Assembly (NCBI RefSeq): GCF_023055435.1
Contig: NW_025963913.1
Location: 5,704,001 to 5,768,000 of the forward strand
Source: Haliotis rufescens
Taxonomy: Eukaryota
Direction of reading: 5' to 3'
DNA length: 64,000 bases
Shown here piece after piece: positions 2,420 through 53,958 of the stretch (position 1 is the stretch's first letter; every line of letters begins with the position of its first letter). The position numbers and the translations under genes are program-made. The notes under the pieces are model-generated. The model was not told the DNA's origin and did not search any database. It saw only the letters and a program-made list of their open reading frames with translations.

Positions 2420-4307
2420 ATGGCTGAAGTTGATATGCAGAACCGAGATCCCAACAACATCAACGACCATTTGAAGGTAAGCTGTTTCAAGTTCTATTAT
2501 ATATTAAAACATAAATGTGAATATGAAATTATAAAATTCCTACAACCTTGGTAGTAAGCTGTCACATATGTGAACATGTGATTATCTTGTAATAGACAAG
2601 TATGATATCTTAACATCAGGTAGGCAAGCACAATGTAGAATGTGAATGGCTATAAAATAATAACACAAATGTTTTCTTTTGACATTATAATCGTAGATGA
2701 AATAAGAGAAGGGAACCTCATCCCATGTTAATACTGTCCAATAGAGCACTACGTGTACCCGAAGTGGTTTCCATCGACTGTGGCATTGCCAAGAACTGAG
2801 ACTGATGGCATTAAATCAATACGATCAATTTGTAAATTTGACAACAATTGAAGCGTGCAACGTGAACCGTCTTTGTATAAAGGCTGACTGTCATTGTGTA
2901 CAATTTACTCATCACGCTTGATGGTTACGAATGCAACACAATGCTGTTGATATGGTTACCATACACACACCAATACAACCAATTAAGTCGTAGGTTTCAT
3001 ACTCCGCTCATTTAAAACACAACAAAAATTATATGATGTCAACACTGAACCATCCCAATACCTACAGATATTTAGGTCCAAATATTTGGATGTACACGTA
3101 TAGTATTATTATACATCAGGCTGCTGCTGTGAGACTCCGTGATCTAGTGGTAGAGTGTCCACCCGGAGAGCGAAAGGTCCTGTGTTCAATCCCCGGCCGC
3201 GTCATACATGTACCAAAGACGTTAAAATGCGGTACTTGTTGTTACCTTGCCTGGCGCTCGGAATTAAAGGGCTAAAACAATGACTGGTCGGCTTGGAGTC
3301 AGTATACTGTGTCTTAGTAGGGTATTGCGGCAGGGTATCTCAGTGGGCAATCACTAAATAACCGGCATTAGTCCGGACTAGTACAAGCAGACACAGACGC
3401 ACGTGCATGCACGTCGCTATTTAAGCTATACATATGTTCAACGCTTTACGGCAAGCATGGGTCAAGTAATATAGGCATTTTTTAGGCAAGTATAGGCCTT
3501 GCATAGTTCAAAACATTTATATATTTATATATTTATTTGAATACTATTTTATATCCTTTATACAGATATGACCTTCTATGCTATACTGTAGTTATGGTTC
3601 TGATATGCAGTCCAATTTATTGTTACTTTTGAGACTTCATAACTGACAAAATTCTGTGTAAAGTCCCAAATATGAAATCATCATCACCATTCCGCGCTTG
3701 TTTAATTAAAACTCCTGACGAGTGTATTAAGTAATCTTATCAATGAGCAAGTCTTCTGTCTCAACTATCATTCTTTATGTAGATTTCAAAACAGAAGTAC
3801 GCAATATAGACATACGAACATGTGACTATCTTAACTGTGCATTTGGATCTATATAGTAATAGTTGATAGTTACGATGAAGTGATATTCCGAACACAAAAG
3901 GCGAACTCTTCCAGAGCTCTAAGCTCAGCTACATCCATTTCCTGACTTGCTTGATACATCACATGCATTACATTCCACAGGTCCAGTTTGAGGATGTCTT
4001 GGCAGAGCCCGAAGGTGCACACAGCATTGACTGCTGCTGGAAGTTTACCAACACATGCTTCAACTGCGCCTTCAAATGCTGCTACATGTTGATGACCCTG
4101 TGTGGACCTATCTACGGTCTCTGCTATGGTTGGCAGTACGCCATGCTTGCCTGTGCTCATATTTGGCAGTACACACCACAGATCAGAGCTTGCGAGATCG
4201 ACTGCATCATGTTCAGGAAAATATACACCATCTGCCTCAACTGCTGCCTGACGCCATTCTGCGAGTCCTGTGGTGCCTTCTTCAGCAGGATACAAGTCAA
4301 ACAGTAA
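2420..4307 (+). CDS. Caveolin (caveolin-1/3-like) gene 1, class A; exons 2420..2476 + 3981..4307; 127 aa
   Basis: Exon 1 MAEVDMQNRDPNNINDHLK|gtaag; exon 2 ccacag|VQFEDVLAEPEGAHSIDCCW...FFSRIQVKQ*. Caveolin signature FEDVxAEP; phase-0 intron; AATAAA at 4676. Confidence 0.96.
3131..3426 (+). mobile_element. tRNA-derived SINE family B, in the intron of caveolin gene 1
   Basis: A/B-box head (TAGTGGTAGAG; GTTCAATCCC); body homologous to 22893..23243. Confidence 0.85.
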
Positions 4308-6577
4308 CAATAATGTCTGCAACTGCCTGATCTGCTGGCACAAGTTTTGGAATACTGTTACAGTATATTCGGATTTTTCCATTGATTTGTAAAAAGACTT
4401 TAAAAAAGCACTCACGCGTGTTACTTCACACGTCAGGGCAAAAGTAATAACTACCACGGGATGCAGCCACTTTGCAGAAGCATTAACCTATGGAGCTGTT
4501 TGACTAAATATTTATCCATAATTCCATTTTGGGGGTCGCGATTATATTAATATTTTCTATGGAAAAATCAGGTGACACAAATTTCGCTTTGTTCGTCTGT
4601 GTCAAGATACTGTCTTAATATAAGACCTGGACATAAACCTGCACATAAACACTCAACTAACACATGGCTGTGATCAATAAACAGTATTTACAACAAACGT
4701 TGTATGTTATAAAGAGAATAAACAAGATGTACAGTTCTAATACATCGTTGTCATAATAATCACAATATCGACACCGACAACTTCATTAAAAGGAATTGTG
4801 TTTTAGATCACAACAAATTAAATGTTGAATTATGTCGCAGTCATCTATATAACCATCATTTGTTATTATTGCCTTAACCAGACAAACCATTGTTTTATAG
4901 CATGATGAACGATATATGACGACGCAGCACATTTTAACAACCCTCAGTGATGAACGTTTAGCATATTCGTCCGTAGTAACACCAGTAGATATAAACATAA
5001 ATTCAAAAACAGACCTCAACTCGACCAGTAGTCATGCCCATGCATTTGGTCTAATGAGTGTGAATGAGTTACGTTTAAGTGAATATCATTTAAAAAAATA
5101 TTCTGTCATCAGTGTGATCACTTGTCATATATCACAGATGAACTTAAAACTAGTTGGAGACTATTAGCAAAGGTTAAAAAATAATCTGGCTAGAGATCAC
5201 CAGCAACCTCAGATAGGCCACCATCCTCAGACCTGGGGACTTGAGGTACCTTTGCTACCTACATTGTACCCCACCAGAATTTACACCATACTGAAGGTTG
5301 CTTGAAAGTGAGGCTACACAATTAAAATCAAGACGTATACTACGATTAAAACTATGGTAGGAAAACATACCGTTGGTCAAATGTATCGTCTACAGTGAGA
5401 CCTCGTTAGACTGGATCCTGTGAGTTCGGAAACCATTCCTTCCGACCAATATATAAGGGATATATATTACAACGGACAATATTCTAAACCATAATTTGTT
5501 AATCAGGACAATCAACTTAAAACTGCCCGGATTAAACTTTTTTTAAGTGTGCCTGTCCAAATAGTGTCATTTCCATAACTAATTTCAAAGATATTTAGGC
5601 TTTATTCTCGTATTTAAAACAGTAATTATCTAAATCTGGCTCAGATACCTGCAGTATATATTAGACATAAAATCCACATATGTATGAAAGAAGCGAAATG
5701 CTGGTTAGAAAGGAGGGTAGCAGCCTTATATTTAGAATGGTAAACACTGTTGCTATGTGAGGTAAGCAAAGCATCGCACACACTCTACACACACCAATAC
5801 CGGAACCTGGCTTGGTCTACTTACTTACTTGTCATGCACAATTTGGTGAGACATGCATACCTTTATTTGACGCTTTGGGCTTACCCTAACATCCAGTACA
5901 TTAAGCGCCAGCTGAACTGACTCCATTGTGCGATCTTTATGACTGACCTTACTTCTGATACCCACCCAGGTGAACATTCAGAGAAATCAAATTACATTCT
6001 CTCTTTTCACCTCCAGTTGAAAAACAGCCAACTCTTTTCTTAAACACATGTGTGTATTAGTAGAAAAGGAATTCAAGTGAGTATCGAAACTAACGGCTTA
6101 GATTACAATAGACGCACCCGTAGAGTCACTATCTGCTATTCACCGAAACAGCACCACAGTGGTGACAGTGAATGATTTTCGCTGGAGTAGGAAATCGTTA
6201 AATGGTCGTCAAGGGTACGCTAACAAACATAGTACTCCAAAAGGACGGCGACACAGTGGAGCCACTTGTGCATGCTAGTCTTACTCTGTGAATCTGACGT
6301 TTTTGCTAAAATTAATTACATGGCCCGATCCGACCAATAGAAAACGGTTTCGTTGTGTGCGCACGTGCACCGATTGGTATCTTAACGGTCGATGGAATTA
6401 TAACCGTATGACGGGTTTCCGCTGTGAAATAGCATAGCCAAGCGGGAAAACAACCCTGTTACTATGTAAACATATACTTAATAAAGAACAGAGAGGCCAA
6501 CTGCCACTTTGTCTGAAAGAGCATCTTGCCCAGCATCATAACTCGTTGCGCCAAGTTCGCCTGGTACCTTAGCAAAA

Positions 6578-52802: not shown

Positions 52803-52873
52803 GTCTGTGGTCACAAAGGAGGGACACCAGCTGACCACACACCGTCGGAGTTGACCACACACCTAGCTCAGCC

Positions 52874-53958
52874 ATGGACATTGATTTGACAAACAGGGAT
52901 CCAAACAACATCAACGACCATATCCAGGTACTATTTCGTTATCCTTTTAAAAATGACATCTCGTCCCCATTTGCCAGTCGGACAGAAAGACGATTCTCCT
53001 GGTAATTTGAGCTATGACTGAATAATCATCATACAAATTTACCCGTTGGGTATTAATCATTATCCTAAAACAAAAAATAAATCAGTTTACTCACTTCTAG
53101 ACCTGTACTGGTGATAATAGCCATAATATACCTAGCGTACTGACTCGATACCTATTAGTGCCAGAAATAAATAAGAATGAATAATATTATTGTATATTTA
53201 AGTTACACTGTTTAAGAAGTTATCTCGGACCAACATTTACATTTGGCACAGCTCGCAAGCATATTTCATATCTAAAGAGAACGAATGGGGCCTTATTACG
53301 GATATCCGCTTACCAATATACAAGCGTAGTCTCTCTCCTAACATTGAGATACGAAGATAAAGAAATTGTCGTGACTCTAACGAAGAAATATTTTGACCCG
53401 AAGTAGTTAAACGTATTGAACCATAGAGACGCCTTGACACTAACACTGTCCAACCATATTGTATAAAACAATCGATGAAAGCGAGAATATCTAGCAACGT
53501 TCTTTTATCAACCTACACAAGGCTGTTCTGTGACAGCAAAAACATTGTTATCAGATAATTGTGTACATATAAGCAAAAGGAAGCACAAGCTACAATATAT
53601 TTTATGTGGTATATTTTCTTTCTGACACCAGGTCACCTTCGAGGATATATTGGCTGAGCCGGAGGGCATCCACAGCTTGGACTGTGTGTGGGTCAACTCC
53701 TTCAGGTGTTTCAACTGCTGGAAGAGTTGCATCTACAACCTTCTCGCGTTTTTCTATGGAATCTGCATAGCTGCTCGATGGGGTTGTGAATTTGCCGTCG
53801 TCGCATTCGCACACGTCTGGATCGTCACGCCAATGTTCAAGTTCATGGAACTAAACTGTGGCTGTATCAAGAAGTTCTACGGGATGTGCGTCCACTGTGT
53901 CTTGGACCCATGCTGTGAAGGTTGTGGCATGCTATTCCATGCATTTCAGAAACAATAG
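52874..53958 (+). CDS. Caveolin gene 6, class B; exons 52874..52927 + 53632..53958; 126 aa
   Basis: GCCATGG; exon 1 MDIDLTNRDPNNINDHIQ|gtact; exon 2 accag|VTFEDILAEPEGIHSLDCVW...LFHAFQKQ*. Confidence 0.96.

What the first reader, a model, noticed from the sequence alone, without database searches (positions are those of the whole stretch)
3981..53958. Extreme cysteine enrichment of all caveolin copies
Seen: my counts in exon 2 are 16 Cys (genes 1 and 2), 15 (gene 3), 14 (genes 4 and 5) and 13 (gene 6). They include CC, CxC, CxxC and CxxxC spacings across the scaffolding, intramembrane and spoke regions. Known: human CAV1 has three Cys (133, 143, 156), which are palmitoylated. Inference: hyper-S-acylation may replace bulky hydrophobic residues on the membrane-facing surface; alternatively the disc binds metals or senses redox.
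Basis: partly seen in the sequence, partly recalled or inferred. Interest (0 to 1): 0.7.

Follow-up and report, generated by a model that had tools for sequence, protein, structure and literature searches.

The report
Cysteine-rich invertebrate caveolin gene cluster
These abalone-type genes for a membrane-shaping protein (caveolin) do carry 13-16 cysteines each, but so do most of their close relatives in molluscs and some in other animals, so it is a shared family trait in which cysteines stand in for bulky greasy residues on the side predicted to face the membrane, where several are likely tagged with fatty acids.

Summary
The counts are right (16, 16, 15, 14, 14, 13), and a seventh copy starts at 62672. 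The window is part of a 22-gene tandem array with 13-17 Cys each; the genome's lone other caveolin has 6. The trait is not special to this genome: 82 of 90 named mollusc domains have 13 or more Cys, as do flatworm, barnacle, shrimp, spider, coral and Xenopus caveolins. It is not universal either: family representatives span 0-18 (median 9). Human CAV1 (3) is a low-end yardstick; a primate CAV3 has 8 in the same span, and rat CAV3 is palmitoylated at six sites. Cys trades one-for-one against bulky hydrophobic residues (slope -0.94), and 12 of 12 testable Cys columns of the window genes lie on the helix face that published mapping calls membrane-facing. Acylation is untested; metal binding is unlikely. 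My literature searches found no description of the Cys-rich group, but a key 2008 paper was not readable. The scan noted a similar caveolin array in another genome. Verdict: real, clade-wide, under-noticed variant; modest interest.

The parts
2420..2476 (+). gene 1 exon 1 (Met to end of pin-motif region), 19 codons, no Cys
   Evidence: only in-frame ATG after the upstream stop; GT donor
3981..4307 (+). gene 1 exon 2, 108 aa + stop, 16 Cys
   Evidence: AG acceptor; PF01146 E 3e-26
6578..6634 (+). gene 2 exon 1
8576..8902 (+). gene 2 exon 2, 16 Cys; 95% identical to gene 1; member of an 11-copy subfamily
31327..31653 (-). gene 3 exon 2, 15 Cys, including equivalents of CAV1 C133, C143 and CAV3 C124
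33505..33552 (-). gene 3 exon 1
40578..40901 (-). gene 4 exon 2, 14 Cys
   Evidence: the 842-base intron is skipped in contigs of 3 of 4 laid runs
41744..41794 (-). gene 4 exon 1
42712..43035 (-). gene 5 exon 2, 14 Cys; the spliced protein is identical to P0002, named caveolin-1-like [Haliotis rufescens]
   Evidence: contigs of 2 of 4 laid runs join across the 703-base intron (table 8)
43739..43789 (-). gene 5 exon 1
52874..52927 (+). gene 6 exon 1
53632..53958 (+). gene 6 exon 2, 13 Cys
63712..64000 (+). gene 7 exon 2, cut by the window end; near copy of gene 6 (99%); 13 Cys in the full exon
   Evidence: L010

Best explanation
These are intact, short, pin-motif-bearing caveolins of a widespread cysteine-rich group, in which cysteines have replaced bulky hydrophobic residues one-for-one and fall on the helix face predicted to contact the membrane, where several per subunit are likely S-acylated as in caveolin-3. 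Shown: gene models, counts, the 22-copy array, purifying selection, the Cys-for-bulky trade, one-face helical periodicity, and the distribution across phyla. Inferred: assembly into an 11-mer amphipathic disc like 7SC0; that the Cys face is the membrane face (helical-wheel extrapolation from published anchors, not 3D coordinates); that zDHHC enzymes acylate a subset, most plausibly in the intramembrane and spoke helices; and that the acyl chains supply the hydrophobic contact with the bilayer and with sterol that Leu, Ile, Phe and Trp supply in CAV1.
For: (1) Across 139 representatives, bulky FWYLIMV content falls by 0.94 +/- 0.06 per unit Cys (random replacement predicts 0.48), while charged content does not change (0.00). 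The slope is -0.93 after dereplication to 108 and -0.94 +/- 0.08 in 133 independent contrasts. Cys plus bulky is 56-59 in the CAV1-like protein, CAV3 and the five window proteins tallied. Of the 88 Cys in the six window genes, 57 align with bulky residues of a CAV1-like protein, 24 with small residues, 7 with Cys and none with a charged or polar residue. (2) In helices 107-126, 132-142, 144-155 and 158-169 (CAV1 numbering, anchors excluded), 12 of 12 Cys columns of the window genes lie within 90 degrees of residues published as membrane-facing, against 21 of 50 positions (p 2e-6) and 19 of 38 non-polar positions (p 2e-5). For all 22 array genes it is 12 of 14 (anchors). (3) All six window genes carry Cys at the CAV3 C124 equivalent, 4 of 6 at CAV1 C143 and 3 of 6 at CAV1 C133; these three sites are palmitoylated in mammals. 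In that CAV3 study every single-Cys mutant was palmitoylated to some extent. (4) Cys number and position drift: 27 columns carry Cys in some array copy and only 4 in all 22, as expected for an additive lipidation surface rather than a fixed ligand set. (5) dN/dS is 0.08-0.22 in 12 of 14 paralogue pairs, and the four invariant Cys use both TGT and TGC. (6) The full-length model (pLDDT 92.5) finds 7SC0 as its best match (Foldseek E 6e-7, TM 0.62).
Against: No acylation data exist for these proteins. No 3D oligomer was built, so face assignment rests on ideal 100-degree periodicity and on my helix boundaries; at 102 degrees per residue the score falls to 10 of 12 (p 0.006 against non-polar positions) and 10 of 14 (p 0.046). 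About a third of the Cys lie in helix alpha-1 (83, 91, 94, 98, 99), whose stripe points about 100 degrees from the only anchor there and is not significant on its own (p 0.06); the CAV3 Cys at position 99 is not palmitoylated. Genes 1-2 lack all three CAV1 sites, and none of the six has C156. Three of the four invariant Cys (83, 91, 154) replace small Gly or Thr, which suggests packing rather than acylation. In CAV3 only 6 of 9 Cys are acylated, four predominantly, so full occupancy is unlikely. A Glu at position 118 (charged in 86% of the mollusc-dominated set) lies on the same alpha-2 face, so that face is not purely greasy.
Confidence: 0.6

Rival explanations
1. The Cys are mostly unmodified small hydrophobic residues that thin or repack the disc and its subunit interfaces; acylation is incidental, at CAV1 or CAV3 levels.
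For: Cys is hydrophobic, so one-face periodicity and the trade against bulky residues follow without acylation. Invariant Cys 83, 91 and 154 replace Gly or Thr. CAV1 discs assemble from unacylated, E. coli-expressed protein, and palmitoylation is not needed for caveolar localisation (passages and a cited title).
Against: It does not explain why Cys, rather than Ala, Val or Thr, is kept at 10-13% under purifying selection across phyla. Membrane-facing Cys in CAV3 are acylated when present.
Confidence: 0.22
2. The disc is a thiol redox buffer or sensor: Cys pairs on a helix face form reversible disulfides or are glutathionylated under stress.
For: CC, CxxC and CxxxC pairs are present. CAV3 is glutathionylated on diamide stress. 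An 11-mer would hold 143-187 thiols (arithmetic).
Against: The CAV3 glutathionylation site is the N-terminal C19, and these proteins have no Cys in exon 1 or the hook. The Cys lie on the apolar face, away from cytosolic glutathione. i+3 and i+4 spacings are what one helix face produces anyway.
Confidence: 0.09
3. The disc binds Zn, Cu or Cd through Cys clusters, as a membrane-bound metal sink.
For: Four Cys are invariant in all 22 array copies (83, 91, 154, 160). Genes 3-6 carry C110, C117 and E118 on one face of alpha-2, with His at 114 in gene 3. Gene amplification is seen in stress and detoxification families (own knowledge).
Against: The Cys lie along long hydrophobic helices, not in turns or in a Lys/Ser/Gly-rich domain as in metallothioneins or zinc knuckles (own knowledge). 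The four invariants are spaced 83/91 and 154/160. Genes 1-2 have W117 and Q118. Counts vary continuously from 0 to 18 across the family. A paper search for caveolin with metal terms and molluscs listed nothing relevant among the 10 shown.
Confidence: 0.07
4. Artefact: mutational bias (CpG decay of Arg codons), pseudogene drift, or collapsed and duplicated assembly.
For: The array has near-identical copies (up to 99%), some of which could be allelic duplicates.
Against: All 22 exon-2 frames are open. dN/dS is far below 1. Only 1 of 27 Cys columns has an Arg codon as an alternative. Spliced contigs exist for genes 4 and 5. The same Cys columns recur in other genera.
Confidence: 0.02

Closest known systems
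Mollusc 'caveolin-1-like / caveolin-3-like' proteins in NCBI (Haliotis, Lottia, Patella, Babylonia, Dreissena, Mya, Crassostrea and others)
   Same: Same short length (mostly 124-135 aa), same Cys columns, median 15 Cys in the core (range 11-20; 90 domains, 33 genera). Gene 5 is identical to one named record, and gene 4 differs from another by 3 residues.
   Different: Nothing in Cys content. The 22-copy array, with an 11-copy subfamily at 88-98% identity, is a local expansion.
Mammalian caveolin-3 (bioRxiv 10.1101/2022.09.15.508083)
   Same: Described as relatively Cys-rich; palmitoylated at six Cys, up to 66 per 11-mer; all mapped Cys positions absent from the cytosolic face. Shared Cys columns among the window genes: 151 (all six), 143 (four), 133 (three), 99 (two).
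   Different: 8 Cys in the core (Pongo CAV3) against 13-17 in the array. CAV3 sites 121, 125 and 156 are not Cys in the six window genes. No N-terminal glutathionylation Cys here.
Human caveolin-1 8S disc (PDB 7SC0; PMC9094659)
   Same: Pin motif, signature motif, scaffolding and spoke helices align almost without gaps (E 4e-30). Best fold match.
   Different: 3 Cys; a 48-residue N-terminal region that is absent here; bulky residues where these proteins have Cys. Genes 3-7 end near position 172 without a clear C-terminal beta-strand.
Type II caveolins, 'CavY extended' and 'Protostomia' groups (PMC12330381, citing Kirkham et al. 2008)
   Same: Pin motif present, which that paper finds only in Type II. 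In my tree the array genes fall outside the clade that holds vertebrate CAV1/CAV3, among arthropod and flatworm sequences and a 16-Cys Xenopus caveolin.
   Different: Assignment to a named group is a lead only. The paper's main text never uses 'cysteine' or 'palmitoyl'.

Membership tests
Caveolin family (PF01146) | Caveolin domain above the curated cut-off | tested here: met
   91-118 bits for six exon-2 products, 134 bits for full-length P0002, cut-off 25
Caveolin family (PF01146) | Signature motif in the hook (CAV1 68-75, FEDVIAEP) | tested here: met
   FEDVLAEP or FEDILAEP in all seven genes; aligned to 7SC0 residues 68-75
Caveolin family (PF01146) | Hook, scaffolding helix and spoke helices fold like the 7SC0 protomer | tested here: met
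   AF2 monomer pLDDT 92.5; Foldseek 7sc0_A E 6.4e-7, TM 0.62, rmsd 5.0; VIA-align Z 6.5, top row but within 1 of unrelated long helices
Caveolin family (PF01146) | Assembly into an 11-mer amphipathic disc | not testable with these tools
   The complex predictor takes at most 4 copies and was not run; the disc is inferred from 7SC0 and PMC12330381
Type II caveolins | Pin motif (CAV1 49-60, with Arg54) | tested here: met
   Exon 1 aligns to 7SC0 residues 50-65 with the RDP core kept; definition
Type II caveolins | C-terminal beta-strand forming the central barrel | tested here: inconclusive
   Genes 1-2 end in an alternating IQVKQ tail; genes 3-7 end in F[GRQ]K and the gene 5 monomer model shows no strand; a monomer model cannot show a barrel strand
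CavY-extended / Protostomia groups | Groups with the reference sequences of Kirkham et al. 2008 | tested here: inconclusive
   Reference set not available (no CavY row in the supplements searched); tree is midpoint-rooted with weak deep support
Multiply S-acylated caveolins (CAV1, CAV3) | Cys at membrane-facing positions | tested here: met
   Helical-wheel test, 12 of 12 columns, by extrapolation from published anchors; alpha-1 Cys not covered
Multiply S-acylated caveolins (CAV1, CAV3) | Thioester-linked fatty acid on those Cys | not testable with these tools
   Needs acyl exchange chemistry
Metallothionein-like or zinc-finger metal binders | Fixed Cys ligand set in a polar, non-helical or knuckle domain (recalled definition) | tested here: not met
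   Only 4 of 27 Cys columns are invariant in the array; the Cys lie in long hydrophobic helices; Pfam finds only Caveolin in P0002 at E up to 0.1
Metallothionein-like or zinc-finger metal binders | Stoichiometric metal binding | not testable with these tools
   Needs ICP-MS

The most novel reading that the evidence does not exclude
A large, undescribed branch of caveolins (tandem-amplified in molluscs, present in flatworms, arthropods, amphioxus and Xenopus) builds its membrane face from lipid rather than protein: each 11-mer disc carries more than 100 acyl chains (143-187 possible sites, against 33 for CAV1 and 66 for CAV3), forming a protein-tethered, enzymatically tunable stand-in for the displaced inner leaflet that lets cavin-less invertebrates set curvature and sterol capture through acylation state and paralogue mix.
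Probability: 0.2. Interest if true: 0.72.

Novelty: new variant of a known kind. Interest (0 to 1): 0.38.

Why it matters
The genes themselves are annotated caveolins, and their Cys content is ordinary for their group, so nothing is special about this window. What may be new is the family-wide pattern: a continuous 0-18 Cys range with a one-for-one exchange against bulky residues on one helix face. How a flat caveolin disc bends membrane, and what palmitoylation adds, are open questions (PMC9094659 says the effect of palmitoylation on the 8S complex remains to be investigated; simulations in PMC12107156 give about 60% more cholesterol under a fully palmitoylated disc). Natural variants with 3, 8 and 16 Cys form a ready dose series for testing this, and mammalian work could not have revealed the high end.

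Tried and rejected
First fold (exon 2 of gene 3, 33 rows) gave one long helix, pTM 0.40, and no Foldseek match; it was not used. VIA-align on the second model ranks the two caveolins first, but within 1 Z of unrelated long helices, so it adds little. No complex prediction was run: it is limited to 4 copies, and a pass would reflect likeness to 7SC0. Per-helix wheel tests against the polar vector were individually weak (alpha-1 p 0.06, alpha-2 p 0.17; pooled p 5e-5, or 0.008 among non-polar columns). CpG decay and pseudogene drift were rejected. Exon 1 of the C68 singleton was not identified with confidence in 10 kb upstream. Kirkham et al. 2008 was not held. Nine paper searches (listings of 4-20 papers each) showed no title or abstract opening that describes Cys-rich invertebrate caveolins; subscription journals and bioRxiv supplements are outside these searches. 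A monophyletic Cys-rich clade was considered but is not shown: the tree has no true outgroup, and the Cys-poor clade holds several 13-14-Cys members.
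Full report
1. Observation. Six-frame translation and motif search show seven two-exon caveolin genes in the window. Each has a 16-19-codon exon 1 ending at a GT donor, a phase-0 intron of 0.7-1.9 kb and a 107-108-codon exon 2. All six exon-2 products pass the Pfam Caveolin cut-off. CxC occurs only in genes 3-7. The seventh gene, a 99% copy of gene 6, is cut by the window end. The enrichment is not chance (p 3e-6 for 13 of 108 at an assumed 2.5% background). Contigs from 3 of 4 laid runs skip exactly the predicted 842-base intron of gene 4, and 2 of 4 join across the 703-base intron of gene 5; the fourth, DNA-like run shows neither joint. 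These runs are only guessed to be RNA. Gene 5 is letter-for-letter the record P0002, named caveolin-1-like of Haliotis rufescens.

2. Genomic setting. A PF01146 search of the own genome gave 23 matches from 41 candidates scored: 22 within about 153 kb of contig C135, spanning the window, and 1 on C68. All 22 array exons are open and carry 13-17 Cys; the C68 copy has 6 and is 30-36% identical to the rest. The array holds several subfamilies, including 11 copies of the gene 1/2 type at 88-98% identity. dN/dS is 0.08-0.22 in 12 of the 14 pairs I chose; one close pair gave about 1.2 on few differences and one was saturated. Four Cys columns are invariant (CAV1 numbering 83, 91, 154, 160) and use both TGT and TGC; 27 columns carry Cys in at least one copy. 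Only one of those 27 has an Arg codon as an alternative, so CpG decay does not explain the Cys.

3. Is it unusual? Not for this group. Of 69 homologues found with gene 3, 61 covered the core; their median was 16 Cys and 55 had 13 or more. Named mollusc proteins from the first two searches give 90 domains in 33 genera: median 15, range 11-20, 82 with 13 or more, and 32 of 33 genera with at least one such copy. These searches were seeded with Cys-rich queries, so they sample the close group. A profile search of 50%-identity representatives found 873 proteins; of the best 150, 139 covered the core, with counts from 0 to 18, median 9, and 36 at 13 or more. I looked up 30 hand-picked representatives; 15 carried a species name. 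Cys-rich ones include Macrostomum (18), a barnacle (17), Xenopus tropicalis (16), Penaeus (15), the coral Oculina (14), a spider (14) and Seison (13, 14). Amphioxus cav-b, printed in a supplement, has 15 by my hand count. A third search seeded with 20 Cys-poor sequences returned 34 proteins; named ones include corals and an anemone (7-9), nematodes (1-5), hemichordates (7, 11) and a second mollusc group (6-8). Pongo CAV3 has 8 in the same span and a CAV1-like protein 3. So Cys richness is the norm for the short mollusc caveolins, frequent elsewhere, and not universal. In a FastTree of 134 cores with Cys masked, a clade of 65 (support 0.96, median 7 Cys) holds vertebrate CAV1/CAV3, cnidarian, nematode and Cys-poor mollusc sequences and the C68 singleton. 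All 7 array representatives lie outside it, among arthropod, flatworm and Xenopus sequences. The tree is midpoint-rooted and the 65-member clade holds some 13-14-Cys members, so monophyly of a Cys-rich group is not shown; a link to the published CavY/Protostomia groups is a lead only.

4. What do the Cys replace, and where do they point? Across the 139 representatives, bulky residues fall 0.94 points per point of Cys, twice the 0.48 expected from random replacement, and charged residues do not fall. Dereplication (108 sequences, -0.93) and independent contrasts (133, -0.94) agree. Cys plus bulky residues stays at 56-59 in the CAV1-like protein, CAV3 and the five window proteins tallied; the singleton has 53. 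Of 88 Cys in the six window genes, 57 align with bulky, 24 with small and 7 with Cys residues of the CAV1-like protein, and none with charged or polar ones. The exon aligns to 7SC0 without gaps, and the full-length model finds 7SC0 first. Published mapping places CAV1 positions 121, 125, 133, 143, 151, 156 and 167 on the membrane face and 99 at the outer edge. Using these as anchors on helical wheels and leaving the anchors out of the count, 12 of 12 Cys columns of the window genes in the four inner helices lie within 90 degrees of the anchor, against 21 of 50 positions and 19 of 38 non-polar positions (p 2e-5); for all 22 genes it is 12 of 14. The result holds at 98 degrees per residue and weakens at 102 (10 of 12; 10 of 14). 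The alpha-1 Cys (83, 91, 94, 98) form a stripe about 127 degrees from the polar face and 100 degrees from position 99, which could be membrane face or subunit interface. The hook is nearly Cys-free. Helix boundaries were my estimates; no coordinates were available.

5. Mechanism. Most likely (0.6) the proteins form CAV1-like discs whose membrane face is Cys-rich and partly S-acylated. The precedent is CAV3: six palmitoylated Cys, four predominant, all away from the cytosolic face, with the rim Cys (99) and the central Cys (167) left unmodified. All six window genes have Cys at 151, four at 143 and three at 133; none has 156, and genes 1-2 lack all three CAV1 sites. An 11-mer would offer 143-187 thiols, but CAV3 suggests partial occupancy. 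Simulations of fully palmitoylated CAV1 recruit about 60% more cholesterol and widen the curvature footprint, which gives a plausible function. Rivals: unmodified small hydrophobic packing (0.22), which the computational tests cannot separate from acylation; redox (0.09); metal binding (0.07), for which the invariant four Cys and the C110/C117/E118 patch of genes 3-6 are the only leads; artefact (0.02).

6. Literature seen. PMC12330381 (Han et al. 2025): outline, sections 7, 8, 10 (part 1 of 2) and 14, term searches, a term search of six supplementary files and part 1 of 2 of Data S1; 'cysteine' and 'palmitoyl' occur 0 times in the main text; figures and alignments could not be seen. PMC9094659 (Porta et al. 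2022) and PMC12107156: passages only. bioRxiv 10.1101/2022.09.15.508083: parts 1-2 of 4. PMC7383883 (Ciona caveolins): passages; no 'cysteine'; states that invertebrates lack cavins. Kirkham et al. 2008: not held, known only through citations; it may remark on Cys content. Nine searches listed no paper describing Cys-rich invertebrate caveolins, within the limits of that library.

7. Verdict. Observation confirmed; interpretation partly supported. The window is an ordinary sample of a widespread Cys-rich caveolin group, so novelty at this locus is low. The family-level pattern (a one-for-one Cys-for-bulky exchange on one face, up to 16-18 Cys) seems undescribed and offers a natural test series for what acylation does to a caveolin disc. 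Interest 0.38.

Noticed in passing
G000:C135:5643999-5796508 (window = 5704001-5768000); loci L001-L008, L010-L023: A 22-gene caveolin tandem array over about 153 kb, with an 11-copy subfamily at 88-98% protein identity and a 4-copy subfamily at 96-99%; all exon-2 frames are open. Copy number was not checked by read depth.
   Followed up: partly
G000:C68:17975740-17976069 (L009): The only caveolin match outside the array has 6 Cys and groups with the Cys-poor clade; a natural within-genome control. Its exon 1 was not identified.
   Followed up: partly
window 31327-31345, 40578-40596, 42712-42730 (-) and 53940-53958 (+): Genes 3-7 end in a basic helical tail near CAV1 position 172 without an obvious barrel-forming beta-strand, while genes 1-2 keep a short alternating tail; one subfamily may form barrel-less discs.
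   Followed up: no
CAV1-equivalent position 118 in genes 3-7: A Glu replaces Tyr118 in the hydrophobic alpha-2 helix (charged in 86% of the mollusc-dominated set, 0% of the Cys-poor set); it would make a charged ring near C110 and C117.
   Followed up: no
P0264 (UniRef A0A803K4J0, Xenopus tropicalis): A vertebrate caveolin with 16 core Cys that falls among the invertebrate Cys-rich sequences; possibly CavY (untested), and an accessible model for experiments.
   Followed up: partly
window 21441-22556 (+): A 372-aa open frame with a LicD-family match (PF04991, E 1e-9) and an N-terminal hydrophobic segment, inserted in the caveolin array between genes 2 and 3.
   Followed up: no
window 58944-60806 (+): Three consecutive in-frame open stretches (252, 201, 166 aa) separated by single stops, with no Pfam match; looks like a decayed transposon-type gene.
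   Followed up: partly
window 38704-39247 (+): Mariner/Mos1-type transposase remnant (HTH_48, E 1.5e-8), broken across frames.
   Followed up: partly
window about 11470-12420, 24100-27300, 48050-49950: Long tandem-repeat tracts that give repetitive open frames in several phases; the 48-50 kb tract translates as Cys-rich text but is unrelated to the caveolin Cys.
   Followed up: no
window 41206-41392, 42215-42456, 43250-43420: Short, very high-copy interspersed repeats inside or beside genes 4 and 5 (huge contig depth in all four laid runs).
   Followed up: no
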